Positions 16,001 to 63,826 of a stretch of 64,000 bases of DNA are shown here, one piece after another (the stretch's first letter is position 1; each line of letters starts with the position of its first letter). The position numbers were made by a program, and so were the translations under genes. This DNA is from Spironucleus salmonicida. Its lineage: Eukaryota. The DNA lies in assembly GCF_000497125.1 (NCBI RefSeq), contig NC_090598.1, positions 248,001 to 312,000 of the forward strand. Direction: 5' to 3'. The notes beneath the pieces are model-generated. The model did no database searches. It was not told the DNA's origin and was given only the letters and a program-made list of their open reading frames with translations.

Positions 16001-18638
16001 AAAATAAAATAAAATATCATCTAACCATAATGAGCTCATAAATTATTATTTACACCCAACATTTATAGTTTAAAATTTATGTTAAAATATACTAAATATT
16101 GATGCTTAAAATATTTTACCCATGAATTATTATTACATATATACCACAATTAAACAGGACGTCAAAGTTTAAAAGCTTAGCTATTAAGGCTATTTTTAGT
16201 AATATTGTGATATTGTTAGTGTTTTTATGTTATAATCTAATTTAGATTATAAAAATTAAATAGTTTTAAATAATTAACAAAGTCAATCAATATTACTTAA
16301 TATTTCTTAAGATAAGTCATTTACACATTATTAGTCTGTGTTTAAAATTTATCCATAATTTATGATTTAAAATCTTTTTTATCTAACTAATTATTAAGTG
16401 TATATAGTTATTAGTGAAAAAGTGATTGATTTAACAGGGTTATAGTTTGTAGAGCTTTTAGGTGTAAACACAATACATGATGCCCGTCTTATAGTATAAT
16501 AAGGTAAAGATAAGAAGCAATGGAACAATATACACATTCAAAAGATCAAATCAAAGTAAAAATTTAGTGAAGACTAACTAACAGTTACTTTTTTGAAATC
16601 TTCATCTATCACATTAACTTCTACAATATTAACAATTTAGCCAGAAATTCTTATTAGAAACTAATCAAATTATTTCTTTAATTATTATTTTTGTAGCAAT
16701 GATAATAAGAATGATATTTATCCAGTTCTTAATTCTATTGATAAAATAACACCAATTTTTGTTAACTAGTAATATATTTATCTTTAATATGAAGAAAATA
16801 GTTAGTATTCATCTATAATTGATTTAAGTTAAAAATGTTCTTTATGCTTATTTATTCCAGGTCTTAATTAATTTATATCTATTTAAACTTTTCATCAGAG
16901 CGGGATTCTTATTATTGATATCTTCAACAAAACAGATGAATCAGATGCAATAAAAATTATCAATCTTACATCATAGTAAATTTAAGTATAATAACAATTA
17001 GACTTTACTATTTCATCAAAAAATAAGCAAAAAATGTGTAGTGAATCTATGAGCAAGGATTATTTATAAAAAATAATGATTGAATAAAACTCCGAGAGTT
17101 ATTATTAATTATATGATGTATAACTGGTCCCCGTAATTTAGATCTTTATTAACGATAAAGATTACGTTAATGTATCATTAACAAAAATAGGTAAGCGGAA
17201 GCCAATTAAAATAAATAATATTACTATTTTTATAAGTTTAGATTGCCATATTAACACGAAAATAATTAAGATTAGTTTTAGACCAATTTTAGATGATACG
17301 GTTCTATAGAAAGTTTGGCTTAAATTAGACGACAAAAATATATATACAAAAAGAGTATTGACATTCAATTCATGTACTATTTCAGTTTATATCCCACATA
17401 TAGAATTTTAAAATAATGTAAACTAGTCTGTTTAAAATGAATAGTTAAGAATATTTATTTCTAACACAAAATTAGCATAGTTTATTTATAATGAACAAAC
17501 GATAGTTTCTGTATCAATATCACACATTAGTATTTAAAATTTTATCAGCAATAGTTATTTTGAATTTATTTTAACGTTTGCTTTATCTTAGAATCCATCA
17601 TTTATGTTAACATGTACTTATTAGAATAATACTAGACATTTTATCAATACCGTTATTTAAATTTAACCAATTATATTAAACGTTGAATAGACACTTTATG
17701 ATTTTGTGTTTACAATTAAAAATATTATTTTTGTCCAAAATGCTATACCAAATTTTGCACAAACTAACACAGATCTATTAGATTAAAAGCTATTTATCGT
17801 TGATAATATTATAGGTAAACCGTTTTTGCTTAAATAAAAAAAGCTAGATTTCTCTTAAGTGTATTTTGGGAATTTTTAAATTAATTAAATAGAACTTACA
17901 GTTTCTTTTTCTTTAGAAAAAATTGTATTATCGTAAACTAGAACTATTAACTCATTACTATCTACTGTAATAGATCCTTTTATGCATCTTTCAGACATAA
18001 GAATTTTACTACCATCGTTTACTATTAGTAATAAATTTATTTCATTAAGAGAAACTATTACTGAATTTTAAAAATTCTATTTTCCATAACTTATTTCAAA
18101 CGTTTCATCTCTTATTTCTGGTACAGAGCTTCCTGCATCTATTTAACGAGCATTTGAACCGTTTGATAATTGTATTGATGATATTCATACAGACGCTAAA
18201 AATCTTAAATTTCTACCTCGCAAACTATAAATATCGCTCACTAATTCTATTTTCGCATTTCCAGCCTCTGTTGCCAGAATCCTTGAGATTTTAACTTTTG
18301 ATGGATCATTTAAAGCTAGACAACTTAAATTACGAAGAATGAGTGAAAAACACCCTAAACTAGCCGTTAAAAATGCATTTTTATCCCTTAAAGATGGATT
18401 TATAGATGGTATATATGGAGTTGTAAAACAGCCTTAAAAAGGATTATCGCGACAAGGAAAATCAGGCTTAGCAAAAGGGATCGGAAAAGGTATTATTGGT
18501 ATTTTATTAAAGCCTGCTTCTGGTATCACAAGTATGATTGCTTGTCTAGGTATGAGTTGTGGTAATTAATAAATAAAAGAATTAGTACACAGAAAATAGT
18601 GGCGATAAGGTATAGATGAAGAAGAGAGCTTTATGTGA
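10059..18638 (+). CDS. VPS13: VPS13 family lipid-transfer protein (paralogue 1), ~2859 aa
   Basis: Chorein-N: MLESLIVNKLQDLATKYLDNFDKNMLNISIGKGDVEIRNLSLKSDAL, KNFHIRFE. C-terminal Gly-rich helices GFIDGIYGVVKQPQKG...GIGKGIIGILLKPASG. Start and stop are in the same frame; the interior was only spot-checked. Confidence 0.9.
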
Positions 18639-19525: not shown

Positions 19526-21415
19526 ATGGATAAGTCTTTAAGAACGAGTTAACTCGGCCAAGCAAGTAAACCTGTTTAACCATTACCAAATAGCTAAATT
19601 AGCAATTCATAGATATAGCTGTTTGAATAATTTTAGCATGAAAAGATAACTAAAACTAGGTTAGAAAAATAGTTACGAAGCTCTAAACTTTAGATTCCAG
19701 TGTCCATTAATTCAGATATTTAAAATAGAATGGTTAACTTATGGGATGCACTGGAAGTATCTGTAAAAGAGAGGCATTATGCATATACAGTTCTAAGAGA
19801 ATCGTAAGAATAAGCACTTAATTATATTAATAAGATGCGTTAAATCTTATTTCATAGACGAAGGTTTGAGGAATTAACATCACGAAGAGAATAAATCGCA
19901 GAGTAGTTGCGGGTTATGCTTTAATAAGGTAAAGGTTCAAAAAAAGATCTTTTAACTAATGCAATTTAAGTTAGAATGATGACACTAGAATTATTTACTA
20001 TATTTAATTCAGCTAGAAAGTATGTGAAAAAACCCATTGATCTACCTTCTTTAAATGTACTTAATTATTCTTTTCCCAAACGTTTACTAGGAGAGTCTGT
20101 ATTTTCTCGTGAAAATTTGATAGTCGCTATGTGTGTTGTAAGATTTTTTGGAAAATCTTCTTATAACAGTGTTAAATCATAAGTTAACTAGATATTTGAT
20201 CAACTTATCATTGATGGGTCTAATGAAAATGAGGTTTCTTTTAGTTTTATGATAGGGCAATAATTACTGAACAGTTCTATACCTTTATAATTTCATTAAT
20301 TTTTGGTTTAAACGTTTTAAGATCTATATGATGTTAATTTAGATTAATATTTGCCAAGAAATTTAATTAAATTAGATTTAGTCAAGAATATTATGAAGTA
20401 AGAAAACCAAGCTTATAGCGAATATATTAAAAAAGTTACTACAATTTAAAATTAGGATTTAGATATTTGTGTTGTGCCTATTAAGGATGATATATTATTC
20501 GATCCAAATATTAGTTATATAGATGGTTGGAGTATTGAGGAAATAAATAAAATTAATTTAACGTTTAAACATACTCTATCTAAAAAATTTTCTCCATAAA
20601 GATTACTTCAGGATATGAGAAATAGTAAACTTAATATAACAAAAACATAAGTTTAAAATGTAAATAAATAAAAAATATAAGCTACATTATAGTTACAAGA
20701 AGATTTATTACCTTTTGAAGAAATTGAGCCTGAAATTATGTAGTAACCATAGATATTCACGTGTCAAATGGCTAAGCCTGCTAAGATCGAAGCTGCCTTC
20801 ACTGAGGAAGCATTTGACGAAGAACCAGCAATGCCTGCTAAGATCGAAGCTGCCTTCACTGAGGAAGCATTTGACGAAGAACCAGCAATGCCTGCTAAGA
20901 TCGAAGCTGCCTTCGATGAGGAAGCATTTGACGAAGAACCAGCAATGCCTGCTAAGATCGAAGCTGCCTTCACTGAGGAAGCATTTGACGAAGAACCAGC
21001 AATGCCTGCTAAGATCGAAGCTGCCTTCACTGAGGAAGCATTTGACGAAGAACCAGCAATGCCTGCTAAGATCGAAGCTGCCTTCGATGAGGAAGCATTT
21101 GACGAAGAACCAGCAATGCCTGCTAAGATCGAAGCTGCCTTCGATGAGGAAGCATTTGACGAAGAACCAGCAATGCCTGCTAAGATCGAAGCTGCCTTCA
21201 CTGAGGAAGCATTTGACGAAGAACCAGCAATGCCTGCTAAGATCGAAGCTGCCTTCGATGAGGAAGCATTTGACGAAGAACCAGCAATGCCTGTTACGGT
21301 TGACGCTGCTTTAGAAGAAATTATAGTATAATCACATACTGACAATCGATTAGGATTAAATAACGTTAGTTATCATTTTGATCAGGAATTTGAGGCGAAT
21401 GGATTTGAAGACTGA
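19526..21415 (+). CDS. Unknown helical-domain protein with 9 x 19-aa acidic repeat tail (family member A), 629 aa
   Basis: In frame with track ORFs 19976 and 20768. The N-domain NLWDALEVSVKERHYAY...MRQILFHRRRF...RMMTLELF...PIDLPSL is shared with the adjacent gene. Confidence 0.85.
20777..21289 (+). repeat. Coding tandem repeat, 9 x 57 bp, PAKIEAAF(T/D)EEAFDEEPAM
   Basis: Units are identical except ACT/GAT at one codon (order T,T,D,T,T,D,D,T,D). Confidence 0.97.
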
Positions 21416-21493
21416 ATGATTTTTGAAATACTGCATATTTTATTTTTTATATTATATTGTATGTAATATTCAGAAGATCTCCATTTCATACAA

Positions 21494-24325
21494 ATGTAAC
21501 CGCAAAAACCACTCATTGAGTAAACAGCCAGAACGACACCTCTTTAACCTCTTTCAAATAATATTACAATTTAAAGGACTAATTATAATCTTTGGACTGC
21601 TTCATAGTAGCAGAAAAATGTCGATCTCACAATTCGCAAGTCATTAAGGAAAGCCCAGAAGTCTCAAAATTATTCTCCAACTAGGCCGTCTAATAATGTC
21701 CTTATGTAACGCTTAATTAACCTTTGGGATGCTCTATAATGTCCCTAATAAGAGCGTGATTACGCATATTCAGAAATTCTCAAAGAGCCAGCTTTGGCCA
21801 ACGATTATGCCCGCACAATGCGTTAAATACTCTTCCATCGAAGACGGTTTTAGGAGTTAGAGACAGAGCGGACGTAGTTGGCTGAAAATGTGCGAACAAC
21901 CCTCCAAGCTGGGCGTGGCTCAAAGCGAGCGCTTTTAGCTGATCTAATAAAGTTACGTGTTATGACCCTCGAACTATTCAGCCTCATGAATTCTGCTCGA
22001 CGGTTTTCAGCTCGTCCGATTGACCTCCCTACACTAGAAGTACTCGAGTTTAGCTAGATAAAACGAATTTTTAGTGAAGGAATTCTATCCAGGGAAAACT
22101 TGAGTGTTGCATTTTGTGTGATGAGGTTTATCGACGGGAACTATGACGAGGTGTCCGCTTAGGTCAATGATGTTTTCGACTAGTTGATTGTTCAGGGGAC
22201 TAACGATGAGGAGATTTAGGTAGCTTTTTTACTCGGTAGTCCAATTCTTGAGAGCCAGATACCATCCCAATTTTAAAAATTTTTGGTAAGAAAATTCGAT
22301 GAAATTTTCGAAGTCAAACTAGAAAAATACGAACCTAAAGATTATGTTAAACCTAGTTAAGTACTTGAAATGATTAAAGGGGAAACAAAAGGATATAACT
22401 AGTATATTAGATTAATTTAGTAGTTGTAGGCAAAAGAAATGGAAATATGCACAGTTCCAATTCATCATAGTGAAAAGAGTTACGATGCATACTCTGTATC
22501 TGTTGAATATTTGAAAGATATACCTGCTGAAGAAGTAAAACAAGTAAGGAAAAATTTTACAAAACAATTATAGAGCAAATTTAATGAGAAAAGTTAAAGC
22601 CAAATTGACGATAGGATTTTATAATTAAGCTAAAATAGTAAAATGTAATAATAACAAGTGTATAGGCCGGTACTTAAGGTTAGGAATGATAATGTGATTA
22701 AAAAATAAGAATATGAGTAAAAGAGAGAATCTGAAATTTTGATAAAAGAGGAAATCCAAGCCGATGTTCCCATGACTCTAGAAGCACCACCGCATGACGA
22801 GTTTGATGAATTCCCAGCGGATGTGCCTACCACGTTAGAGCTGAAGCCGTAGGAGGAGGATGATTTCGAAGACACTCCCTAGCATGTTCCTGCGACGCTA
22901 GAGGAGCCGATGCATGACGATCAGTTTGATGATGCTCCAGCAGTCGATAGCCGCTAATTCGTTTAGAATATGCCTTCTCCATTTGAATATAACAATGACG
23001 ATATTATTGCATATGCAGTAGATACGGGTAACTCTAATTCTGTTGCTAACTTAATTACTGAGGCGCCAGCAGATGAATATGATTTCGAGGAAACCCCAGC
23101 CGATGTTCCCATGACTCTAGAAGCACCACCGCATGACGAGTTTGATGAATTCCCAGCGGATGTGCCTACCACGTTAGAGCTGAAGCCGTAGGAGGAGGAT
23201 GATTTCGAAGACACTCCCTAGCATGTTCCTGCGACGCTAGAGGAGCCGATGCATGACGATGAGTTTGATGATGCTCCAGCAGTCGATAGCCGCTAATTCG
23301 TTTAGAATATGCCTTCTCCATTTGAATATAACAATGACGATATTATTGCATATGCAGTAGATACGGGTAACTCTAATTCTGTTGCTAACTTAATTACTGA
23401 GGCGCCAGCAGATGAATATGATTTCGAGGAAACCCCAGCCGATGTTCCCATGACTCTAGAAGCACCACCGCATGACGAGTTTGATGAATTCCCAGCGGAT
23501 GTGCCTACCACGTTAGAGCTGAAGCCGTAGGAGGAGGATGATTTCGAAGACACTCCCTAGCATGTTCCTGCGACGCTAGAGGAGCCGATGCATGACGATG
23601 AGTTTGATGATGCTCCAGCAGTCGATAGCCGCTAATTCGTTTAGAATATGCCTTCTCCATTTGAATATAACAATGACGATATTATTGCATATGCAGTAGA
23701 TACGGGTAACTCTAATTCTGTTGCTAACTTAATTACTGAGGCGCCAGCAGATGAATATGATTTCGAGGAAACCCCAGCCGATGTTCCCATGACTCTAGAA
23801 GCACCACCGCATGACGAGTTTGATGAATTCCCAGCGGATGTGCCTACCACGTTAGAGCTGAAGCCGTAGGAGGAGGATGATTTCGAAGACACTCCCTAGC
23901 ATGTTCCTGCGACGCTAGAGGAGCCGATGCATGACGATGAGTTTGATGATGCTCCAGCAGTCGATAGCCGCTAATTCGTTTAGAATATGCCTTCTCCATT
24001 TGAATATAACAATGACGATATTATTGCATATGCAGTAGATACGGGTAACTCTAATTCTGTTGCTAACTTAATTACTGAGGCGCCAGCAGATGAATATGAT
24101 TTCGAGGAAACCCCAGCCGATGTTCCCATGACTCTAGAAGCACCACCGCATGACGAGTTTGATGAATTCCCAGCGGATGTGCCTACCACGTTAGAGCTGA
24201 AGCCGTAGGAGGAGGATGATTTCGAAGACACTCCCTAGCATGTTCCTGCGACGCTAGAGGAGACGATGTAAGAAATATATACATCACCATTTACTTTCAT
24301 TATAAATGAAACTGAATTTATATGA
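21494..24325 (+). CDS. Unknown helical-domain protein with ~4.4 x 113-aa acidic repeat tail (family member B), 943 aa
   Basis: NLWDALQCPQQERDYAY...MRQILFHRRRF...RVMTLELF...PIDLPTL, a paralogue of 19526-21415. Same frame as track ORFs 22970/23309/23648/23987. Confidence 0.85.
22760..24262 (+). repeat. Coding tandem repeat, 339-bp period, ~4.4 copies
   Basis: Identical track ORFs recur every 339 nt. Copies are near-identical; one C/G difference was seen near 22922. Confidence 0.97.
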
Positions 24326-38129: not shown

Positions 38130-39860
38130 TCACATATCGATGTTTGTTTACCTAACTTCAGTTGGAACTTCATTCTCTCTAGGACTGGAATTGTTCTTTG
38201 AAGATCTTGACATATCATTTAATATTTTACTAGCAGAAGCATTCTAGCTGACTGAATTATCAACAGTTGAATGAACTATTAACTAACTAGTCTATACTTA
38301 ATAAGGCGCCTGAGCAATATCAAACAGTGGTTGATCATCTTCATGTCCATGATCACTTCCCTATTCATTATTAAATGCTTCATTCTTAGATTTATACAGA
38401 ACAACTATTTTTTCTAAAACTTCATACACTAATATATAAGATGTTAAATTTTTGATTAACTAATTCCACATGAGAATAACCTCGAAGTCGCCAAAAACAG
38501 TTTTCGTGGCTTAAATTGCAAGCAAGGCAGCATCTTAAAGAGCTAAATATCCCTAGAAAAACCATAAAGATGTGGAACCTGCAAATGATTGTTAGGACAA
38601 CAAAATAGAGAATCCAGTAGAGAAGAGATATGGTACTGACGCATTTTTAATGAACGCTAAAGAATGGATGTATTGTTCATAATATTAATAATCATAAAAA
38701 GTTCTTGAATTTCGGAGCATCAAATTTATAAAAATTGGGGTGAAAAGATAAACCACACATGCTAAAATAAAGCTTATTACTGATTATACAATTATAACTT
38801 CTTTATAAATATGTTTGATTCTATCATATTAGAGGGTTTTATGACAATTTTCTGCAAAGAAGCCTAAATGATCAGTTATTGCGTCTTAAAAACTTCCAGT
38901 CATTTGCCTAATTAGTTCAAATATCATAATACACATTTGAGCATAAAATTTTCTTAGTGGAAGTTTACCATCATAATCAATATTTATGCAAATGATGCTT
39001 ATAGCAGACATAATTCTTGGCTATATGGTAAAATAAAAATTGCTAGACGCTCTATATAAAATATCAACTAAAATTTAAGGCCTAAAAGGTAAGAAAAGCT
39101 TAAAATTAAGTTTAAACGTTTTATTCTTAGTAGGAAGGATATATGTAAAATAATAAGCTGACGGTATGAATGTACTTATACATTTAGCTGCCAGGAACAT
39201 ATATTAATTAAGTTATAATCCTTCATTAGGATAAAGAATTAGAGTACCAAAAAGTAATATCGTTATTGAAAGAATAGCTTCCGAAATAACAAGAATACTG
39301 ATCTCGTTAATCCTATGAATTGAGAGTAATATTTGTTGCATGAATTATGATAATACACCAGTAAAATTAATCAATATCGTATACAGAGTATAAAAAGATG
39401 ATACTTTTTCAGTGAAAACAAAAAATATTGATAGTATTTATTATTTAAATACAAGTAGAACGACGGTAAGTAAAAAGTTTAACATTATGAGTAAAAAGAA
39501 TATCATGATCAAATAAACACACGCCACTCTATGAGTACCTGCACCTACATGTTTAGAGACAACTTTACTAATTGATGTTGTAAGAATTTTGGTGATTGAG
39601 TAGAAGAAAGCTTCTATAAGAAAAGACACTATTAATGGGTATAAAGCATCTGAACCTTAAATATGAAATAATAAAGAAAATTCAATTATTTATTTTATGA
39701 CTGGAGTCAAGTAACTAAACCAAAGAATAAAAATCTCTTTTCTTTATTGCGGAATATCCGATTAAAGGTATGTTTCGGCCACTAACTTTCTAACTGAGTT
39801 AGTGTTAGCTGAAGAACAGGAAGATTAATTGTCAAAATTATCCAGGTTTACATTGTACAT
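38130..39860 (-). CDS. Multi-pass membrane transporter, MATE (MatE)-like, 576 aa
   Basis: Many TM segments; SISKVVSKHVGAGTHRVA matches the MATE 'S+xxGAxxxxxA' loop. Polar N- and C-terminal tails. Confidence 0.7.
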
Positions 39861-47859: not shown

Positions 47860-50800
47860 ATGTTGGAATCTTTTGTAGTTAATTTACTATAGGATTACGC
47901 TGAGAAATACTTAGAACAATTTGATAAAAAGATGCTTTAGATATCCTTAGTAAAAGGAGATGTACAAATTAATCATTTATAGCTTAAAGCAGATGCTCTA
48001 CAAGAAATACACCCGGCTTTATGTATATAACATGGTTTTATTAGTTAACTACAAATAAAGTTTTCTATTCTCAAATTAAAGTCTGAACCAGTTTCAATTC
48101 GAATTTAAGATTTTGTAGTGCTGTTGAAATCAAGTAAGGATAAAATTATTACTAAAGAATTTATTTCGTAATAAATATAAGATGGTTTAGAAGAAAAAAT
48201 AAAAAGTTCTTTTAAGTATATGCTTTTTAAAGAAGAAGTATTAAAGGAGCCAACTAAATAAAAAAATGGATACATTAAAACTTTAATAAAAACTATTTTA
48301 ACTAATTTGAAAATTGAAATAAATAATATTCATATACGATATGAAGATAATGATTTAAAACATTGCGTAGGTTTAACAGTACAGAGTATATGTTTAAAAA
48401 CTATCAAATATGTAGAAATTAACAAATAATTGATAGAAAAAGAGTAATTTGTCAATGAGAACGCGTAATCTTTTATCAAAAAAATAGATATTACTAATTT
48501 TTCTGTTTATTTAAATTTAGGTTATATACCAGTTAATTTATTTCATGATTCGACAAATATTAAGTAATTTTTAGTTAATACCGTTTAATTTTAAGATAAT
48601 TATAATTATTTGATAAGACCAACAACATTTAAGATGTATCTAGAAACAGGTGTGTAATCTGATATTTAAAAATTTAATATTTAAGCTAGCATAGATAACT
48701 TAAATTTTTAATTTACAACTAATTAATTAGACGCAATTATTTAGCAAGTACAGTAATTATACTCGAAGAATTAACTAGGTAATATAATTTATTACCCAGA
48801 AGATAAATTACTAATAAATAAGCATTAGTGGTGGTCCTATATTATGGCATCATATGACAGCGTCGACACTTTATGGTAATAAAAGGCATCTTTTTCTGCA
48901 TTCATACATTTATATTCAAAACATTATATTTAATATTAATAGATGTCATAGAAATAAAAAGATTCTACTATAAATGTTTTTTAATTGACGAAAGTAGAAG
49001 AAGAATATATTTATTTATTTTATCAAACTTTTTCATAAAAAGAGATAAATTTTTGTATAGAAACGACATTAAAACAGTTGAAACAAAGAAGTGGAAAATT
49101 TTTTAAATCATACTAATAGCTTATATTAGATGATACAATAATAGAAGAATTATTATTATAATTCATAGCGGATAATTAAACTAGAGATTATAATTTGGAT
49201 AGTAGTTAATTTAATATTACTTTCAAAATAAACTAAATTAATGTAAGTCTTTGTTAACATTAAAAGCAAATTAGTATTAAGACTTAATATGGTTGTTAGG
49301 CAATCGGATAATAGCATTTATAAGAAAATATATTATCAGTGGAGATTATTTAAACAAATTTCAAATTTATTTTTAACAATACAGGATTTTAGGTGGATCT
49401 TTAAATTAATAATTTTATTTTAATTGATAATTTTAGCCTCAAAGAACCATATATAATAATTTAACAATTTATTGGTTTACCTTTTTAAGACAAAAAATAA
49501 GTTATAGCGTTAGATATATAATTATTAACTCTGTAATTTATCAAAAGTAATGTTGATTAATAATATAACTTAAAATTATAGGCGTAGCCGTTATTTATTT
49601 AGTATTAATAATGTATTTTAAATCTTGTTAGTAGGCTGATTTTACTTTTCAAGACTCTAAATAAGTATAAAAATCTAGAATCGTTATAGTAAATCTCTAA
49701 CTTAGTTGAAAAATCATTTAACTAGATCTAGTAACATTCATAAAACGCTATCAAGATTGCAATTGATAATCATTTAAAGTTAAAACTTCAGTTAAAATTG
49801 TAAGCCCCTATATTATCACTTTGTATTGATGAGAGAAATTTATTAATTAATTTAGGCATGGTATCTATTAATACTTCTATGCCAAATTTAGATAAGTTAT
49901 ATGATAATTATTAAGTTAAGCTGGATAATGTATATGTGTTTTCATCTGAATCAAAAGTATTGACTAATTAAATTTTCAGTTATTTGAAAAATAAAGAGAC
50001 AGAATTAGATCACAAATTAGACAATATGTATGAATAATCTATAATCTTATTCCCATTTAAATTAATTGTAGATTTAAATATATGTATATTAAGAAATATA
50101 GAAGATAAGCCTTAAATTATAGTAAAATCATAAATTGAGAATATAAATGTTAATATAAATGAAAATAATATTATATGCACATTGTAATTATTATAGCATT
50201 TATTAAAATATTAGTCATCATAGAGAATCTCTATTTTAAGCACACAGACTAACATTTCTAGTTTAAATATTACTGATAGTGATAAAAGTGTAGTTTAATT
50301 ATCATAATAATAAGAAATTGATATAGTTGTCACTAAATTAGTATTTTCGTTCGATATTAAATCATTTGTCATCGTTTTTAGTTAATAGTATAAATCTTTT
50401 GAGCTAAAAGTTGAAGGTTTCTAAGTATAGATAAATTAATTTTCATATAATACTTAAGCTTTCTGCATACTTAATTGTCTTACATTTATTGATTTGTCTA
50501 GTAATAAATAAATATTTTGTATAGGAGCTTAAGATAGTGCACTTGATATAAAAGTTTAAACATATGATCACTTGCATCTATCATTTTAAGGAAATGCTCT
50601 AGAGACTTAAATTTGTATCGGCTCTGTAAATATATATTATGAACTCTAAAGATGTTAATAAATTTTAGATTGCTTGAGTTCTTTTGTTTAATTATTTTAG
50701 CTTAATGTGGAATCTCTAGACCCTAAACTGAAAGTGTAAAATTTTAGTAATTAATCTATAAAAACTAAAATGGATAACATATAATCTAATTATTCATTAA

Positions 50801-53800
50801 AATTAGTAATAAAATTTAATTCTATATCAGTATTTATTGAACAATAGGCTTCGTTGTTAACAGTAGTTATGATAAGATAAATAATTATTAAATATTAATA
50901 AAATGATGAAAAGGTTGAAATTAATTTAGCTTTATAAGAATTTTTAATTAAATCTCTTCTTAATGACGAAAAATATATAGTTTCTTTTAATTCATAAGAT
51001 GATAAAAACCTTAATGTATCATTTATTTTATTTAATAACCCATCAAATATTTAGCCAGATATACTAGTGAATTGTAATATTTTATCTAGAATAGAAATTA
51101 TAATTGATTTAAGATTTTTACTTCTGTTAAAATACGAATTTGATAATATTCTTAAAATACTAAGCGACTAGTTTTCAAGTTCAAATATTAGGCAAAGTTA
51201 ATCAGTATAATAAATAAATATATAATAGGTGTTTTAAATCGATGCAAATATTATTGCTCCAATAATAATTATTCCTATTTCTCAAGGAAACGAAAAATCT
51301 TTATTTGTAGATTTTGGTCGTATAAAAATTTCTAGTTCGTTCACTAAAGCTAAAGATCTCGAAATGTGTTAGTAATTCTTTTTATCATTTGCAAATTTAA
51401 TGATATTATCACATTTGCATGAAAATATATTAACCCCTGTATCATTAGAGTGTTACATATAACTATGTACTAATTAGTAGAACTAAAATATTATGATAGA
51501 ATTAGTAATAAATTAAGTTACATTTACTGTAACCAAAGATATTATTTATTTCATATAGGATTTATTCCTAATATAAAACAATTTTGGTTACAATATTTTA
51601 TAAGATATTTTTAAACAATAATCCGACATTGATTTAATAGATAAAAAAATAAAGAATAAATAATTATAAATTGATAGTTTTTAATACTCTGATGCGATTA
51701 TTAAAGAGAAAATGTTAACAGCTATAAATAAAAATACAGTTCTTAATTTAACAGAATAAATATAAAAAATAAAAGACAGAAAGATAGAAATTAATATTGA
51801 AAAAATTAAATTAAAATTAAAATTAAAATAAGATACTTTAAACTAAAATAAAGTTAAAAAATAAATTAGATAATGGAATATTATTTTTAGTACTTAATTT
51901 AAAGGGTTTTAATTAATGATAGATGATAAAGTAAGTATAAATTTCAAAGGATTTAATCTTAATTATTAGAACTAATAAAATATTTCAAATATTGTATTAT
52001 TAATTGGATCATTTAATATTTTGTTAGACTAAACACCAATTCTCTAATCAGAATAATAAGTATAGTTTAAGTGTGAGAAAATTCTTAATAAGTTTAACAT
52101 AGAATCTAATTCTTAGTCTAAAATTTAAATTAATTTGCTTTTAGTGTAATTTATAAACTATTTTTATTCATATAAGAGTCCAGAAACTAATGATTTGACA
52201 TTATATCAATTAATATAGGAACGATCTCTTTTTATGGACTCTTTTAAGATAGCAAATAATTTATTTGATGAAAAATGTTAAATATTTTCACTACTATAGA
52301 ATCATTAGTATGTTCATACTTATACTTTAAAAAGAATTTAACCCTATTAAAAATCCAGGTGTGATGAAGTTAATCTAAATCTAACGTTTCCATAAGTAGA
52401 GATATAAATACCGACCATTGAAAATAATTAATATTTGTTAATTTATTTTTAACCTATGATTTCTATAAATATGGTACACAATCTAAAATTAAATATAGAC
52501 AAAAAAGGAATTTATGTATCTTTTAAAATGGATAAACTATTAGAAACTAAATGTTAGATCGATGGTTTTAATTTATAATTAGTAAATAAGGAAATAAAAT
52601 AATCTATTATTGATAATTTATCATTGGATATCTGTTATTTAATGACACAAAACTAAATATTAGTATAAAATCCTTTACAATTTATTAGAGAAGAATAAAC
52701 AACTTAGATTGAATGTAAATTTTTAAGCTAAATTCAAGTTACTATTACTACTTAATAATGCAAAACAATACAATAAACATTAAATTCGTTACTGAAATAG
52801 ATATAGAACTCTTAATAGAATGTATAACCTGTTCAAGTGAAAGCAACACAAAATAATTATGTTGATAATTTAGATATTATAAAGGAAGATGCGCTGAATA
52901 AAACTCTTCTACCTGAAACTTGTTATTTAAGTAATGATGTTTCATTTAACAATAAATCACTAAATATATATAATACATTGCATTAAACTGATATATAAGT
53001 TGCTATCACATTCGCCTCTAGTATAAAATTCTTTGATGACTTCAACGATTTCTAACCATTGGTGAAAATAGATATTTTAAATATATACTTAAGTATGGCT
53101 TAAATTTAGCAATATTCTGATAAAAATGATATAGTTATATCTGGAAATTTGGAATTAAAAGTGTCACATTACAATTAACCATTTTAAAATTGGGAAACCT
53201 TAATACCAGGTTTGAAATTATAGGTAAATATTGAAAAATTATTCTCCACAGTAAACAATTAGTTTATTACAAAATGCAATGTATTGATCCCATAGGTGCA
53301 ATTTAATTTATCTAATTTAATTTTTTTGTCTATAAACAATATAATATAAGTTTCACAATTAATCGTTTAGAATGAACCTGAGAAGAAAGTGGAATTTTTA
53401 TCTAATTATAAAATCCACTAGTAAAAGATAATTCATAAAAAACTTTCAATAAAAATTGAAAACAACCTTGATATTGATATAGGTCTATAAAATTATAATA
53501 TTTAGCCTTTAAATTATGTTGAAATTTCTTATTAGGATAATATTAGTTTTGTTATTGGAGATTAAACTATAGATATACCAGTAAAGATGTAATATCAATA
53601 AAGGACAAGTGTAAATAATTAAGATATATTTATTTATGTAGAATATATAGATAAATTATACTAAGTTTGCTTCAGACCATTATATAAGATTGTTAATATG
53701 ACGAAAATAAAACTTTATATTTAAAATACCCAATTTAAAACATTCTATACGGGATAGTGTTTAATGTAGTTATCATTAATAGATAAATCTAGTAAATGCA

Positions 53801-56523
53801 CATAGATAGATTTTAACAATATAAGCGAGTCTATTCTTATTGATGATAAATATTTTAGGTTAGAATACTCACGACGAACTTTTGAAGAAGTGTAGCTTAT
53901 AAATATGTTTATTTACCCATCTTTTATCATAACTAGTTACTGCAATTATTAATTACTATTTGATGATTATAACTTAAATCCTCTTACATCTATTGAATTG
54001 TATGTAAATCCTTATAACTCATTATCTTTTAAAACTATATATTATTATGAATAATTCACTGCTAAAAACTAAAAATTATTTGAGTATTATAGTAAAGTTC
54101 CTGTATTATCCGACTAGTCTAAAAAAGCAAAAAGATTAAGGATAGACTATCTTATTAATAAATGTATTTACCACACTCCTACCACATTATAATTAGCTTC
54201 TTCAAGTAAAGAATCTTACTATTTAGGTGTTAAACGTTTAGTTTCATAGAAGGAAAATACTTCAAATACGTTTAATTACTAAATTATATTCTACCCGTAT
54301 TATATTTTGGTAAATAGATTATTTATTGAAAGATAAGTAACTTCTAACTATATTTAAATTAATTGTTAACATAACACAAAATATTAGTGTTAATAAGGTG
54401 ATTATATGGAACTAGGTATAATGAAATCATAAAAATGCGAAATTTAAATTTATCAAAACAACAAAACTTTCAAAATTAAATAATATGAAATTAATAATGA
54501 GAATACTATGGTTTAGTTAGCTTAAGAATAAGAGTTCTTATAGACTAGAATATAGTATACTAATTCAAAGTAGTAATTAACAAGAATAATTACAGTATAT
54601 CCAATATTGATATTGAGAAATAATTCTACTCTTCATTTTTTTTATGAATTTAATGATAATTATTCTAATATCGTATCAAGAAAACAATAAGCACATATAA
54701 ATAGTTAGTAGATAGTTAGTAGTTTCTAATTAACAAATTATTTTTATTTGCAACATAATAATATATGGTCTTCTCCAATATCATTAGACTAATAGGGGTC
54801 TTTTACTATTCTTTTCTAAGATATTGATCTAAAATGTGGATTACAAGTTAAAAATATAAATGATATAGTACTAATAGATATTTTTGAGGAAATTTCTGGA
54901 TAACAAATTCTTATTAGTAATTTAACATCTGTAGATTTTAGAATTTCATAAACTACAGAAGGAGATATAAAAATTTACAATCAGTATTATAATCCTGTTT
55001 GCAAAGCGAATTAAATTATTAATTTCTAAGTGTATGATTTAGGTATTCCATAATAGATAAAATTATAGTAAGATGAAGATTTTGTAATAATTTCCTTAAA
55101 TAAAATAGGTAAATGGTAACCTAAAAAATTTGGCAACCACCTTATCTTTGCTTAAGTTGATATCAATGCTAATACAGTTAAGGTTTCATTTAGCTTCCAT
55201 AAAATAGAAGAATTAACAATTTTATAAAAAGCAACAAAAAAATTTAGTGAAGAACTTATTAATGCTAATATTGAAATTTAAATTGAGTAAATTTAAATAT
55301 AAGTTTATCTTAATTGCCACAATTATAAGAAAACCTAACAGAATGTAACTGTTTAGATATTTACATTTTAGTTAAACAATGTCAAAGCAACTCTATTTGA
55401 TTTATAAGAAACGTAAGCTTTAAATTTGGAGGTTCAATAAATTTACCTATATAATTTAGATAAGGCTGCAGATTTCCCTGTTACTGTTAAGTTTTAGCCC
55501 AATAGTTATGATATTAGTGCTCTTAGTATTTAGCTAGAGAAAATTAAACAATACAATCAGTTTATTAATATTAATGTTGCCATTTAGCCTATTTAACTTA
55601 ATATAGATCAGTCATTTTTAGAGAATATATTACTATTTATAAATTCACTTACAGTATCCGAAAATATATTTAGGCTCCCTTAGTAGCAAATGGATATAGA
55701 TGATAAGGAATTAATGTACCAGACTGTATTTAAACCTTTCATTAATATTGAATAATCAAAATTTAATGTCTAAAAAATGTTTATTGCTTTCTTTAATATA
55801 TCTGATATTTATGCAAATGTTAATGTAGCTATTAATGATCTTACATTTTTAGAAAATAATTTTTGGTATTAATTGTTTAGTAATATTGCGTCACCATTCA
55901 TGAATATTACTTCAGCGAATATAAAATTTCAATATTATAAAAAGAAATCATTTATCACAGAGTAATTTGCCTTAATAAATGAAGTAAAGAGATTTTATTT
56001 GGGATAGATTAAGAAAAATATAGGAAATCTCATTAAGTCTTCTATTATTAGTGGATAAACAGCATCTTATGTTGAAGAATAATCTAGTCGTATGTAGGAC
56101 ATTAAAACCTAATCAAGAAAATTAGTAGGAAATTCAGTTTCTAATATTGCAGGCACTGTTTCTTCTGTAGCTAGTTTCATATCAGGAGACTTAAATTACA
56201 AAAAGACTAGTTAAAAACTAATTAGAGACTCATAATAAAATGGCAAAAATGCTATGAGAAATGCTGGAAAAGCACTTACAAATGGTTTCGTAGAGGGATT
56301 AATTGGAATAGTTAAATAACCAATAGTTGGTGGATAGTAAAAGGGTTTTGGTGGTGCTATATCAGGAATTGGTAAAGGTATTGTTGGTATTTTTGCTAAA
56401 CCTGTTTAAGGAATATCTGACTTTGTAGAGCATGTAGGTATTGCAGTAGAAACTGGAGGGAAAAACTAAATGAAAGATTAGATTCCTGATCAATTAATAT
56501 TTAAAAATGGAATTATTGAGTGA
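47860..56523 (+). CDS. VPS13: VPS13 family lipid-transfer protein (paralogue 2), ~2887 aa
   Basis: MLESFVVNLLQDYAEKYLEQFDKKMLQISLVKGDVQI, NNIHIRYED, WEPLIP. C-terminal GFVEGLIGIVKQPIVGGQQKGFGGAISGIGKGIVGIFAKPV. Ends GAG TGA. Confidence 0.9.
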
Positions 56524-60166: not shown

Positions 60167-63043
60167 TCAAAAATAATCATATATGCTCTTTATATCGTCA
60201 TCAGTTAAAAGGCTCGATAATGCATTCCTCTTGTCAGGATCGATCTCCATTTTTGGAACTTTTTCTTTCAAATTAAGGTATTTAGATTTCCACTTTTTAA
60301 TTTCTATCATGCTTTTTTCCAATTATTCACCAGATTTTTTGCTCATTTCTAATGATTCTCTAGCATTAACTTTTTATTTCAATAGATCCTCTTTCATAAT
60401 TGCAACTTTTTTCTCATTTTCACCAAGCTTTTTTAAGTTTTACTATTAATGTTTCAGTAATTCATCATATGCAGTAGTAATAGCTTTCAGTTCTTATTTA
60501 TTATTATAACTATCTGTATTTATAGCTTAAATTTGAGCTTATGTTCCCTAATTTTTGTTTTATAACTCTTGATAAGATTATGTTAATTATTTATTATCAT
60601 CTGAAAGTACTAATGTGCGTTTTCTGAACTATTTAGACTCCTATTAATGCTTAATACAATCTTTTTAAATTTTTCGGACTAAAGCTTTCGAAATCAATAA
60701 TTTTTTCTTATATCCATCGTTAGATTAAGCTATTTCATCTAATTATGATTATTGCTCTTTAATGATTTATTTTCGCTCCTAAAGTTATATCTTGAATTTT
60801 TCATTATCCTAAGATATCTAAGCATATATCTCTCTAGCTGCTGAGCAGTATTCACAAATTGACTCAACTTATACTTATTAGTGTTGCTTCTCCTTTTATG
60901 GTTCAGTTTCAGTAAATTTATCATTTTAAATAAAGGAAACCTAAATTTCAGCATTGATGTAACTAAGTTCATCAGTTATCACAGAAACTGATTTTTTCTC
61001 AATTTCCATTAATTCTTTTAAAGTATGGCGGTACTATCTCAGTTTAATATTTTAACTACCATAAGATGCATTTATATTTAAAAATTATTTCTCTAATGGT
61101 CTCAATTTGTTGCTTAAATTTTCCAATTTTCCTATCTTGTCAGCCAGTTTAATGTTATTATCAATAAACGATTCGAATAACCCTTGTAAAGTAATATTCA
61201 TAAATTAGTACTATCCTTTTTGTTTTCCTCTTTCTTCTTTAACACCGTTCAGAACTTATTTCAGTTTATCCTCCATTATCTAGTTCTTTGTGTTGACATC
61301 ATCATACATTTTCTTTAATTTAATATTCTCTTTAATAACGAGAAAACTCTCTAAATTATCAATTTGGCATTCGACTTCAACTTTTTCAATCTAATAAATT
61401 TCTAGTGCATTTTTCATGTCTTTGATTAAAACATTCTAATTATTCACTAAATTTTATAGTTAATTCTGCTTAATTAATGGAAAATGTGCCTCTTAGTGTC
61501 GTTTTATTTTGATCAAATCAACTTCGATTATATTTTTGAGTGAGTTTGAAAATTCTTTTAACTTTTATATTATATTCTCCATTCCAAAAATTTTGATCTC
61601 CAATTTTTATATTTAAGCGTCTTTCTGAATAATTTTTTCGTGCAGCATTTCTCCATTTGAAGGTAAAGTCTCTAAGTTAAGTAAAAAACTCAAAATTATG
61701 TTATAATTTTCCATTTTAGATGCATTTTCATTTACATAATTACGTATTTTTAATGGTTTTTCTGGTAGATTAACTATATGCTATGATTCATTTTTAGCAT
61801 TTAAATGTGCTATTTGGATGCCAACACCTTTTTAGAAAATTTCGTCATAAACCTAGCATATAGATTTATAGTAAACTATCACCTTGTTGGTACAATTAAA
61901 ATCTTAGCAATGTTCGAACGCTGTAACTTTAGCTTTCAAAATAACATTTTCACTTTCTATTTAATTTAACTAAGTAGAATTTTTATTAACATTAGGAGTG
62001 AAAAACTAATATAAGTTTTAGTTCTTCAGCATTTGCTTTAAATTCTCTATTTCAGTAAGCAAAATTTTGACGATTTCAGCTTTATCAAATTGCATCAAAA
62101 GGGTAAGTTTAGAAAGATTTTGTGTTTCATATTTCTATAAAAGTAGGTTTTTGGCGCTAAAAAGTTCTTCCTATAACAGATAAATAAGGTGGATTTGCTA
62201 ATTTTGTGATAAATTTTCTGGTGAAATAAAATGATTCTACGAACTTTAATTTGATTCATTTTATGTTCCAGTTGATTCTTGTGCACAATGATCAGTTTAC
62301 GTGATAGAATCCATATGTATCTAGTTTTCTGTAGAAATTTATTGTTAAACTAAATCCTAGGATGCTTAAATCTCGCGATTAATGCGTAGAATATTTATCA
62401 CCGATATTTGACCATAATTATGGTCTTGCTAAACTGACAAATCTAGCTGCTTCTTATCACCGTTTCCCGCCTAATTTTGCTTGTCAGAAATCGATGCGCT
62501 ACACTCCAAAACGGACGCACGCAGCACAGTTGAAGAAAGTTGGTTTTCGTGCTTCTGAGCGGCATTTTCCCGTTTCAATTCAGCAATGACGGACTGCTAA
62601 ACGGACATCTGGGCCTGCGATTTAATGAGCAGCTCCTTGTACTTTTCGAGCTGCACTTTTTGGCTGTTCACGTCCGAACCCAGAGAGTCGCGCAGCGAGT
62701 GCAAAGTACTGTTCAGGGAGTCAATCTCGCGATTTTTGGATGCCAGCTGCTGCTGGATCTGCTGGATCGCCAAGTTTTGATCAAAAACAGCGCGTTTTGC
62801 GAGCGCCAGCTCGGTTTTGAGGTCGAAACCCTGCTTGGAGAGCGTGCTGTGCATCTGGTCGTACTGCTGCTCAAACTGCTTTTTCTGGTTAATTAGCAGG
62901 TTCTTATCGTAGGTCAAATCCTTGAATTACTGCCCAATTGTTATAATTGTGTGTAGGCACCCGATCAGGTTTCCGTCTTAGAGTAGGTCAACGCAGCACT
63001 TTAACTGGTCTGGCAGCTCGTTGATTTACTAGGAAATTTGCAT
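60167..63043 (-). CDS. Long coiled-coil protein, ~958 aa
   Basis: In frame with track ORF 62597-62917, ATG 63043 to TGA 60167. Heptad-rich; interior spot-checked. Confidence 0.75.
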
Positions 63044-63099
63044 TTTATTATTATTCGATTCATAATATAATAAATATAATAAATATTTTTGGTGTAATG

Positions 63100-63340
63100 T
63101 CACCAAAGTGTGAACACCATCATGACGATATTCCACACTACCACGATGTATCTTAACAGTTAGATCGCATTGATAATGCTGTAGACTTTGGCCTTCAGCG
63201 TGTTCTCTTCTCCTGGTTTTCTAGTTTGTTAGTAAAAGTTGTATTTATTGAGTTAAAACATACAGAGTAAAGTCTAAAATTGCTGCTGCATTAACGAACA
63301 GTGTGCATGACCATAAAATATCCGTTAGAGATAGAATCAT
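63100..63340 (-). CDS. YOS1: Yos1/IER3IP1 family ER-Golgi membrane protein, two exons (63340-63264, 63220-63100), 65 aa
   Basis: Spliced product MILSLTDILWSCTLFVNAAAILDFTLKPGEENTLKAKVYSIINAIQLLRYIVVVWNIVMMVFTLW* matches the Yos1 pattern (LxxNAxAIL...LKxxxxxLIxAxxxLR...NI). Confidence 0.85.
63221..63263 (-). other. Spliceosomal (U2-type) intron, 43 nt, phase 2
   Basis: GTATGT-TTTAACTCAATAAATACAACTTTT-ACTAAC-AAAC-TAG. Canonical 5' site, and a branch point fused to the 3' site as in diplomonad introns. Removal restores the Yos1 frame. Confidence 0.92.
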
Positions 63341-63454
63341 TTTCTGATAGATACGAATGATATCTAAATAGTATATAACTAATAAGTAAAACTTTATATT
63401 ATTCATATTATAAAATATTTGTTTATAGAACTATATACCACTCCAATTTCTAAA

Positions 63455-63826
63455 ATGGAAGAAATCAAGCAACTTATTTTGTAAGAAATGAAAGTTCGTG
63501 GTATTTACTAAGCCCTTTAATAAAAGATTGCATAGAATTTAGAATCTGCACTCTGTTCGGCATCTACTACTGCTCCCACGTCTCCCTCTTAGGATACACT
63601 GGTTTTGTTAGAAATTTGTGGTGAATTTTTACGCTGGTTAGGACTTAAATCCACCGCGGCAACACTTGAAGCAGAAGCTGGCATATCCACTGCATCTATT
63701 AGGCGTGAGTTCTTAGTAAGCCAGGTAGGACTTAAAATAAGTGCATGTGACTCAGACCTTAGTATTTTGCATTGTATATTACTATTTTGCTAGCAGTTTG
63801 GTGGTGTCGCACCAGTTGAAGTGTGA
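63455..63826 (+). CDS. LisH-domain centrosomal protein, FOP/FOR20 (CEP20)-like, 123 aa
   Basis: MEEIKQLILQEMKVRGIYQALQQKI (TOF-like) followed by LEICGEFLRWLGLKSTAATLEAEAG (LisH) and an SILH end motif. Confidence 0.8.

What the first reader, a model, noticed from the sequence alone, without database searches (positions are those of the whole stretch)
63100..63340. Rare 43-nt spliceosomal intron hiding a Yos1/IER3IP1 gene
Seen: the minus strand reads GTATGTTTTAACTCAATAAATACAACTTTTACTAACAAACTAG, and excising it joins two exons into a 65-aa two-TM protein. The unspliced frame loses the second TM. It is the only convincing intron among about 45 genes here. Established: diplomonads keep only a handful of introns, with GTATGT and ACTAAC-Nx-AG signals. 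Inference: the host is Yos1 (Yip1/Yif1 complex). The intron may already be catalogued under a 'hypothetical protein', in which case the Yos1 assignment is the new part.
Basis: partly seen in the sequence, partly recalled or inferred. Interest (0 to 1): 0.8.

Follow-up and report, generated by a model that had tools for sequence, protein, structure and literature searches.

The report
Known Spironucleus intron in small membrane-protein gene
The 43-base intron is real, but it is one of the four introns already published for the salmon parasite Spironucleus salmonicida; the only possibly new point is that its "unknown" 65-residue host protein belongs to the Yos1-like group of tiny secretory-pathway membrane proteins.

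Summary
On the minus strand, a 43-nt GT..AG intron (63263-63221) splits a 198-nt CDS: ATG at 63340, TGA at 63102-63100, read with TAA/TAG as Gln. A contig from one RNA-like run joins 63264 to 63220 exactly.

The intron is not new. It matches letter for letter the intron of S. salmonicida gene SS50377_18398, printed in Additional file 5 of Hudson 2019. [quoted passage not shown]

The family call is supported only at superfamily level.
- Exon 2 alone hits Pfam Yos1 at E 5.3e-5, 23.8 bits, below the 27-bit cut-off.
- A contiguous 60-aa homologue, P0004, aligns without a gap across the splice junction.
- The script-spliced peptide scores 66.7 bits against P0004, versus 40.4 for exon 2 alone.
- The two homologues carry precomputed SMIM7 (PF27938) hits; P0004 also carries Yos1.
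- The two protein-atlas look-ups disagree on SMIM7 versus Yos1/IER3IP1.

Orthology to Yos1 and a role in the Yip1/Yif1 complex are therefore unproven; SMIM7 is at least as likely. Verdict: already known, low interest.

The parts
63264..63340 (-). Exon 1: ATG at 63340-63338, 25 codons plus the first two bases (CT) of split codon 26. It encodes hydrophobic helix 1, including the motif FVNAAAIL.
   Evidence: P0001. Hydropathy. Aligns to residues 1-20 of homologue P0004. The X1 contig covers 63264-63332.
63221..63263 (-). 43-nt GT..AG spliceosomal intron in phase 2, 23% GC. It is identical to the published intron of S. salmonicida SS50377_18398.
   Evidence: The joint 63220|63264 'skips 43, ends CT..AC' on the + strand. 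The published sequence is in Hudson 2019 Additional file 5.
63252..63263 (-). Extended 5' splice site, GTATGTTTTAAC.
   Evidence: Hudson 2019 section 5 gives the S. salmonicida extended 5' splice site as GTATGTTTAAC. The aligned introns in Additional file 5 show GUAUGUUUUAA for this gene.
63233..63240 (-). Pyrimidine motif AACTTTTA, of the form AAC[T/C]3-4R, directly upstream of the branch point.
   Evidence: [quoted passage not shown]
63221..63233 (-). Fused branch point and 3' splice site, ACTAACAAACTAG (the 'AC-repeat motif'). By analogy, the branch adenosine is predicted at 63229, 8 nt before the 3' end of the intron.
   Evidence: the single match in the window. Xu 2014 quotes the motif. 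The branch position is inferred, not measured.
63100..63220 (-). Exon 2: the last base (A) of split codon 26 (CT|A = Leu), 39 codons including one TAA read as Gln, then the stop TGA at 63102-63100. It encodes the polar loop and hydrophobic helix 2 (63103-63180).
   Evidence: P0002. Pfam Yos1 at E 5.3e-5, 23.8 bits, profile positions 43-78 of 81. The X1 contig covers 63126-63220. Hydropathy.

Best explanation
This is the published, RT-PCR-confirmed 43-nt cis-spliced intron of Spironucleus salmonicida gene SS50377_18398, one of only four introns annotated in that genome.

How it works:
- The reduced diplomonad spliceosome recognises a rigid extended 5' splice site (GTATGTTTTAAC), an AAC-pyrimidine motif, and a fused branch point and 3' splice site (ACTAACAAACTAG).
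- Removing the 43 nt, in phase 2 inside Leu codon 26, shifts the frame by one base. The mRNA then encodes a 65-residue protein with two hydrophobic helices joined by a short charged loop.
- Without splicing, helix 2 is lost. Because TGA is the only stop codon, the exon-1 frame has no stop before the next gene.

The protein belongs to the Yos1-like group of tiny two-helix membrane proteins of the early secretory pathway and Golgi (Yos1/IER3IP1 and SMIM7). Which of the two families it is orthologous to remains open, and I lean towards SMIM7.

Shown: the sequence, the splice joint, identity to the published intron, and collinearity with a contiguous homologue. Inferred: membrane topology, cellular location and function.
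For: Identity with the published intron:
- The intron string for 'SS5-377_18398' in Additional file 5 of Hudson 2019 equals window 63263-63221(-) once U is read as T and alignment gaps are removed; compared by eye.
- Xu 2014 (passages read) reports four introns and the motif ACTAACAAACTAG. [quoted passage not shown] S2 names SS50377_18398 as a hypothetical protein and marks only SS50377_17358 as unverified.
- Of 10 window ORFs looked up, 7 are exact entries of a public annotated genome with a 1,815,816-bp contig.

Splicing:
- One contig of X1 joins 63220|64 across exactly 43 nt, with GT..AG ends on the minus strand and no microhomology.

Gene model:
- P0004 (60 aa) aligns without a gap across the junction. 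Exon 1 ends at column 25 and exon 2 starts at column 27, leaving one column for the split codon.
- phmmer against P0004 gives 66.7 bits for the spliced form, 40.4 for exon 2 alone, 38.3 for the unspliced 63-aa ORF, 18.8 for exon 1 alone and 16.7 for the exon-1 read-through.

Family:
- Pfam Yos1 E-values are 5.3e-5 for exon 2, 9.5e-6 for the 63-aa ORF and 1.3e-5 for P0004.
- Precomputed Pfam hits are PF08571 plus PF27938 on P0004, and PF27938 alone on P0005.
- The best atlas clusters are SMIM7, Yos1 and IER3IP1.
- The AlphaFold model of P0004 has two helices, 2-24 and 30-59, at mean pLDDT 68.
Against: - No Pfam Yos1 score reaches the 27-bit gathering cut-off. Exon 1 alone gives no hit.
- The spliced 65-aa peptide itself could not be put to Pfam, the atlas or the fold tools.
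- Atlas scores of 0.78-0.87 are 'lead only' by the tool's own calibration, and the two look-ups rank SMIM7 and Yos1 in opposite order.
- Only 2 proteins out of 1.84 billion representatives match exon 2 at E <= 0.001.
- Word searches found no protein of 22-2000 aa holding the exon-2 peptide. I therefore could not see the public protein record of SS50377_18398, or what it is called now.
- The RNA joint rests on one contig in 1 of 4 runs from one study, and the 'RNA' label is a guess.
- The window's GC content is 27.1%, against 33.5% published for the genome.
Confidence: 0.85

Rival explanations
1. The host gene is the true orthologue of Yos1/IER3IP1. On this reading it acts with Yip1/Yif1-type proteins in ER-to-Golgi transport.
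For: - PF08571 Yos1 is the only Pfam family hit by exon 2, and the better of two hits for P0004 (the other at E 0.15).
- The atlas look-up with the C-terminal part of P0005 ranks a 'Yos1-like domain' cluster at 0.86 and an IER3IP1 fragment cluster at 0.83, above SMIM7 at 0.78.
- IER3IP1 is described as a small ER-membrane protein with a role in ER-Golgi transport (abstract of PMC11335259, seen in the listing).
Against: - All Yos1 scores are below the gathering cut-off.
- The Pfam copy used here appears to lack the SMIM7 model, so Yos1 had no competitor in those scans.
- In the precomputed newer Pfam, P0005 carries SMIM7 only, and P0004 carries both families.
- The full-length atlas look-up ranks two SMIM7-named clusters first.
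- No Yip1/Yif1 partner was examined.
Confidence: 0.3
2. The host gene is the diplomonad orthologue of SMIM7, a roughly 75-aa metazoan-named small integral membrane protein of unknown function.
For: - Precomputed PF27938 (SMIM7) hits sit on both homologues, and it is the only hit on P0005.
- The two top atlas clusters for P0004 are SMIM7-named, at 0.87 with 199 and 200 of 256 shared features.
- Sub-threshold Yos1 scores are what a sister family would give.
- From recall, not tested: the RY...WN..MM signature of helix 2 resembles animal SMIM7 more than IER3IP1.
- SMIM7 overlapped with the marker TGN38 in rodent neurons, and its function was stated as unknown (passages of PMC9938882).
Against: - The window's own peptide was never scored against PF27938.
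- The second atlas look-up ranks SMIM7 third, at 0.78.
- The atlas clusters carry both families in 34-54% of their members, so the two families are not cleanly separated.
Confidence: 0.55
3. There is no functional intron. On this reading the joint is a reverse-transcriptase or assembly artefact, and the real product is an unspliced ORF: either the 63-aa ORF at 63291-63100 or the long read-through ORF.
For: - Under a TGA-only code both unspliced frames stay open.
- The 63-aa ORF still hits Yos1 at 26.2 bits.
- Hudson 2019 warns that most RNA-seq split alignments in this species are template-switching artefacts.
Against: - The joint shows no shared letters at its two sides, so it lacks the template-switch signature, and its ends are GT..AG.
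- The splice signals match the species consensus over 12 + 8 + 13 nt.
- Published RT-PCR with Sanger sequencing confirmed this intron.
- The spliced form gains 26 bits over any unspliced form against P0004.
- Neither unspliced ORF is in the public protein collection, whereas 7 of the 10 ORFs looked up are.
Confidence: 0.02

Closest known systems
Intron of Spironucleus salmonicida SS50377_18398 (Xu et al. 2014, Fig. S2; reprinted in Hudson et al. 2019, Additional file 5)
   Same: All 43 nucleotides are identical. The GT..AG ends, the extended 5' splice site and the ACTAACAAACTAG 3' motif are the same. It is the same object.
   Different: Nothing in the intron differs. The papers call the host an 'unknown' or 'hypothetical' protein. 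Here it is placed in the Yos1-like group.
[quoted passage not shown]
   Same: The two short introns have the same 43-nt length. All share the GT start, the AACTT(A/T)TA motif and the 13-nt 3' end.
   Different: The host gene differs: a tiny membrane protein rather than a ribosomal protein. This intron is in phase 2 inside codon 26. The internal 11 nt also differ.
Yos1 / IER3IP1 family (Pfam PF08571)
   Same: Small size and two hydrophobic helices. It has an NA.A.L-type motif in helix 1, and a basic residue and an Asn in helix 2. Pfam E-values are 5e-5 to 1e-5.
   Different: Scores are below the 27-bit gathering cut-off. At 65 aa it is shorter than the 81-position profile. No link to Yip1/Yif1 was tested.
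SMIM7 family (Pfam PF27938)
   Same: Both homologues of the window's protein carry precomputed PF27938 hits. The top atlas clusters for P0004 are SMIM7-named.
   Different: The window's own peptide was not scored against this model. The function of SMIM7 is unknown, so the assignment predicts little.

Membership tests
S. salmonicida-type cis-spliceosomal intron | GT..AG boundaries with the extended 5' splice site GTATGTTT(T)AA(C) | tested here: met
   The consensus is given.
S. salmonicida-type cis-spliceosomal intron | Fused branch point and 3' splice site ACTAACAAACTAG, preceded by AAC[T/C]3-4R | tested here: met
   Exact 13-mer at 63233-63221. AACTTTTA lies at 63240-63233. The motifs are described.
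S. salmonicida-type cis-spliceosomal intron | Removed from RNA | tested here: met
   One contig of run X1 skips exactly 63221-63263. The other 3 of the 4 runs have no contig there. Published RT-PCR supports it.
S. salmonicida-type cis-spliceosomal intron | Excision restores a conserved reading frame | tested here: met
   A 198-nt CDS encoding 65 aa. Against P0004 it scores 66.7 bits, versus at most 40.4 for the unspliced models. The alignment is gapless across the junction.
Yos1 / IER3IP1 (Pfam PF08571) | Whole-protein score at or above the gathering cut-off of 27 bits | tested here: inconclusive
   Exon 2 scores 23.8 bits, the unspliced 63-aa ORF 26.2, P0004 25.7 and P0005 17.9; exon 1 gives no hit. 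All E-values are at most 0.004, but all scores are under the cut-off. The spliced peptide could not be submitted.
Yos1 / IER3IP1 (Pfam PF08571) | Two transmembrane helices in a protein of about 65-85 aa | tested here: met
   Hydropathy maxima at residues 1-26 and 40-65 of the spliced peptide. The model of P0004 has helices 2-24 and 30-59 at pLDDT 68.
Yos1 / IER3IP1 (Pfam PF08571) | Association with Yip1-Yif1 and a role in ER-to-Golgi transport (recalled from work on yeast Yos1p) | not testable with these tools
   No genome is held for this window, so no partner was sought. This needs co-purification or localisation in the organism.
SMIM7 (Pfam PF27938) | Significant match to the PF27938 model | tested here: inconclusive
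   The model did not appear in any scan with the Pfam copy at hand. Only precomputed hits on the homologues P0004 and P0005 were seen. The window's peptide was not scored.

The most novel reading that the evidence does not exclude
The intron is old rather than a Spironucleus peculiarity.

The evidence is indirect. P0005 is a 52-aa gene call from an unnamed assembly. Its homology to exon 2 begins right after the residues ...ALTHR, at the column where the window's exon 2 begins. Those residues could be the read-through of a Giardia/Trichomonas-type ACTAACACACAG 3' splice signal, the motif quoted. That would put an intron at the same phase-2 site in another lineage.

If the site is also shared with SMIM7 or Yos1 genes of animals, fungi or plants, this tiny membrane-protein gene would join Rps4 and Rps24 as a carrier of an ancient intron kept through near-total intron loss.
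Probability: 0.2. Interest if true: 0.45.

Novelty: already known. Interest (0 to 1): 0.15.

Why it matters
S. salmonicida keeps only four annotated introns, so each is a reference substrate for a drastically reduced spliceosome. This one has been in print since 2014.

The small addition here concerns the host gene. It is not an orphan but a member of the Yos1-like (Yos1/IER3IP1/SMIM7) group of mini membrane proteins. That gives the 'unknown protein' a testable cellular address in the ER/Golgi. It also allows the intron position to be compared with other eukaryotes, as was done for Rps4 and Rps24.

I found no paper in the searched library that holds both 'Yos1' and 'Spironucleus', or both 'SMIM7' and 'Yos1'. 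One review holds 'Yos1' with 'Giardia'. Automatic database annotation may already carry the domain, and I could not see the record.

Tried and rejected
Searches for the protein or its relatives that found nothing:
- Word-index homology searches with exon 2 extended to 40 aa, for lengths 22-70 and 71-2000: no candidates.
- The same tool with alignment A1: only P0004 and P0005 again.
- PDB sequence searches with P0002 and with A1: 0 hits.
- NCBIfam: 0 hits.
- Two scans of metagenome contigs, with A2 and with P0005: 587 and 432 pattern matches, none confirmed by tblastn. No relative's DNA was therefore available to test whether the intron is conserved.

Tools that were not available for this window or sequence:
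- Whole-genome search: no genome is held for this window.
- The atlas look-up of the window's own exon-2 peptide was not accepted because the peptide needs table 6. I used the database homologues instead.
- The earlier-findings look-up returned nothing.

RNA runs: no listed holder is on record as RNA, and the four runs are labelled 'RNA?' as a guess. X2-X4 have no contig over the gene.

Other intron candidates rejected:
- 13979-14023(+) and 14641-14739(+) lie inside the uninterrupted 2859-aa VPS13-like ORF.
- 59029-58871(-), 159 nt, lacks the extended motifs.
- 39768-39802(+) lies antisense at residues 144-155 of a minus-strand ORF.

Hypothesis rejected: I first thought the window might come from another species because its GC content is 27.1%. 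The identical published intron and the exact protein look-ups ruled that out.

Supplements not seen: Fig. S2 of Xu 2014 is a PDF and could not be read. I relied on its reprint in Hudson 2019. Supplementary Table 3 of the Hexamita inflata paper was not opened.

Full report
**1. What is in the sequence**

On the minus strand an ATG at 63340 opens 25 codons plus the dinucleotide CT, ending at 63264. The next 43 nt, 63263-63221, read GTATGTTTTAACTCAATAAATACAACTTTTACTAACAAACTAG. After them come one A, 39 codons and TGA, at 63220-63100.

One codon in exon 2 is TAA, so the gene makes sense only if TAA/TAG encode Gln (NCBI table 6). The window supports that code. ORFs of 2859 and 2887 aa (both VPS13-like) contain 241 and 276 such codons.

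Joining the exons by coordinates in a script gives a 198-nt CDS of 65 codons plus the stop. There is no internal TGA. The product has two hydrophobic segments, at residues about 1-26 and 40-65. The intron is in phase 2, inside Leu codon 26.

**2. Is it more than chance?**

Motif counts alone are weak.
- A loose intron pattern has 2 matches against 0.18 expected.
- The 13-mer ACTAACAAACTAG, with up to one mismatch, has 1 match against 0.22 expected. Of 100 shuffles, 21 gave at least one match.

The case rests on three other results.
- **RNA joint.** A 165-nt contig of run X1 (depth 211) lies on 63332-63264 and 63220-63126 and skips exactly the 43 nt. The skipped ends read CT..AC on the + strand, which is GT..AG on the minus strand. 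No letters fit both sides of the joint, so the microhomology that marks template-switch artefacts is absent. Three of the four runs have no contig over the gene. All four runs belong to one study and are 'RNA?' only as a guess. However, their contigs cover only ORF-sized patches and end in adapter sequence.
- **Collinear homologue.** A search of all 1.84 billion representatives with exon 2 found two proteins at E <= 0.001. P0004 (60 aa) is contiguous. Aligned with it, exon 1 fills columns 1-25 and exon 2 columns 27-65, leaving one column for the split codon, and P0004 has no gap.
- **Score gain on splicing.** Against P0004 the spliced form scores 66.7 bits. Exon 2 alone scores 40.4, the unspliced 63-aa ORF 38.3, exon 1 alone 18.8, and the exon-1 read-through 16.7.

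**3. It is already published**

Xu et al. 2014 (PMC3916229, passages read) report four introns in Spironucleus salmonicida.
- They quote the shared motif ACTAACAAACTAG.
- The Fig. S2 legend names SS50377_18398 and SS50377_17358 as hypothetical proteins, and marks only the latter as unverified.

Hudson et al. 2019 (PMC6679479) reprint that alignment in Additional file 5, which I read in full. The row for SS50377_18398, with U read as T and gaps removed, is the window's intron letter for letter (compared by eye). Hudson's sections 5 and 7 add two points: the short S. salmonicida introns are 43 nt, and a genome-wide RNA-seq search found no new introns. The 2022 chromosome-scale assembly paper again counts four introns and found no new one with the motif.

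The window fits that genome. Of 10 ORFs I looked up, 7 are exact entries from NCBI/UniRef on a 1,815,816-bp contig, and 5 of those 7 are also in EukProt. The window's gene content fits a diplomonad: SF-assemblin/beta-giardin, a cysteine-rich furin-like membrane protein, SAS-6 and TBCC (16 of 39 ORFs had a Pfam hit at E <= 0.001).

**4. What the host protein is**

- Exon 2 alone hits Pfam Yos1 (PF08571) at E 5.3e-5 and 23.8 bits, covering profile positions 43-78 of 81. Exon 1 alone and the exon-1 read-through give no Yos1 hit.
- The unspliced 63-aa ORF scores 26.2 bits. P0004 scores 25.7 and P0005 17.9.
- All these scores are under the 27-bit gathering cut-off. I could not submit the spliced peptide itself.
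- The homology tool's precomputed, newer Pfam lists PF08571 plus PF27938 (SMIM7) for P0004, and PF27938 alone for P0005.
- The atlas puts two SMIM7-named clusters first for P0004 (0.87 each) and a Yos1 cluster third (0.85).
- For the C-terminal part of P0005 the atlas puts Yos1-like (0.86) and IER3IP1 (0.83) above SMIM7 (0.78). By the tool's own calibration all of these are leads only.
- An AlphaFold model of P0004 is a two-helix hairpin, with helices 2-24 and 30-59 at mean pLDDT 68.

My reading is that membership of the Yos1-like group is likely, about 0.85. The subfamily is open, and I lean towards SMIM7 at about 0.55 against 0.3 for Yos1/IER3IP1. The lean rests partly on recall: helix 2's RY...WN..MM signature resembles animal SMIM7. 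I did not test that with any tool.

**5. How it most likely works**

Shown:
- a rigid splice-signal set, namely a 12-nt 5' site, AACTTTTA, and a 13-nt fused branch point and 3' site;
- exact excision of the 43 nt;
- a one-base frame change that brings helix 2 into frame.

Inferred:
- The branch adenosine lies at 63229.
- The protein is a hairpin membrane protein of the ER/Golgi. IER3IP1 is an ER-membrane protein acting in ER-Golgi transport (abstract of PMC11335259 in the listing). SMIM7 overlaps TGN38 in rodent neurons, and its function is unknown.
- An intron-retaining mRNA has no in-frame stop, because the exon-1 frame stays open for 1079 codons from 63406 to 60167. It would therefore be a non-stop message rather than one with a premature stop.

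**6. What remains unexplained**

The exon-2 peptide was not found in any protein of 22-2000 aa in the 5.8-billion-cluster collection, although neighbouring genes are there. I could therefore not see the public record of SS50377_18398 or its present name. The window's GC content, 27.1%, is below the published genome mean of 33.5%.

**7. Novelty and verdict**

The intron and its splicing are already known. The family assignment may be new in print. No paper in the searched library holds 'Yos1' with 'Spironucleus', or 'SMIM7' with 'Yos1', and one review holds 'Yos1' with 'Giardia'. The assignment is a routine annotation step, and databases may already carry it.

One lead is worth a look. P0005 begins its homology directly after ...ALTHR. 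That could be the read-through of an ACTAACACACAG-type 3' splice signal at the same site, which would hint that the intron is conserved beyond Spironucleus. I could not fetch that DNA. Interest is low.

Noticed in passing
window 60167-63406 (-): Because TGA is the only stop codon, the exon-1 frame of the small gene runs on unbroken for 1079 codons. It passes through the intron, exon 2 and the spacer into the downstream coiled-coil gene. Neither this ORF nor the 958-aa version starting at 63043 is in the protein collection, so the annotated start of the coiled-coil gene lies elsewhere. RNA-like contigs over that gene end at 63018-63032.
   Followed up: partly
window 63455-63826 (+): A divergently oriented 123-aa gene lies 114 nt upstream of the small gene's ATG. 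It has weak FOP-dimer and LisH hits (E about 2e-4). It is covered by high-depth contigs in all 4 runs, whose ends match the ORF ends within a few bases. It is an exact entry in the public collection.
   Followed up: partly
P0005 (52 aa, unnamed Logan contig), residues 1-16: The N-terminus MFKYQTDSALTHR has no counterpart in P0004 and ends exactly where exon 2 of the window begins. 'ALTHR' could be a translated ACTAACACACAG-type splice signal. If so, P0005 is a gene call that read through an orthologous intron. The DNA was not obtainable.
   Followed up: partly
window 39768-39802 (+): A second match to GTATGT..CTAAC..AG, 35 nt long. It lies antisense at residues 144-155 of the minus-strand MatE-like ORF and lacks the AC-repeat motif. 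It is probably a chance match.
   Followed up: partly
window 10059-18635 (+) and 47860-56520 (+): Two giant VPS13-like paralogues of 2859 and 2887 aa lie in one 64-kb window. Both have VPS13_N hits (E 1e-45 and 1e-32) and similar N-termini.
   Followed up: no
window 19526-24322 (+): Two adjacent ORFs of 629 and 969 aa share a similar N-terminal domain and end in long acidic tandem repeats. A minus-strand motif recurs every 339 nt between 22838 and 24194. The weak Pfam hits on the repeats look spurious.
   Followed up: no
whole window: The GC content is 27.1%, well under the 33.5% published for the S. salmonicida genome. This looks like a locally AT-rich stretch of the chromosome.
   Followed up: no
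window 63100-63340 (-), protein collection: The public collection holds neighbouring genes of this locus but no protein containing the exon-2 peptide. Yet the gene is described as annotated in the 2014 paper. Unexplained.
   Followed up: partly
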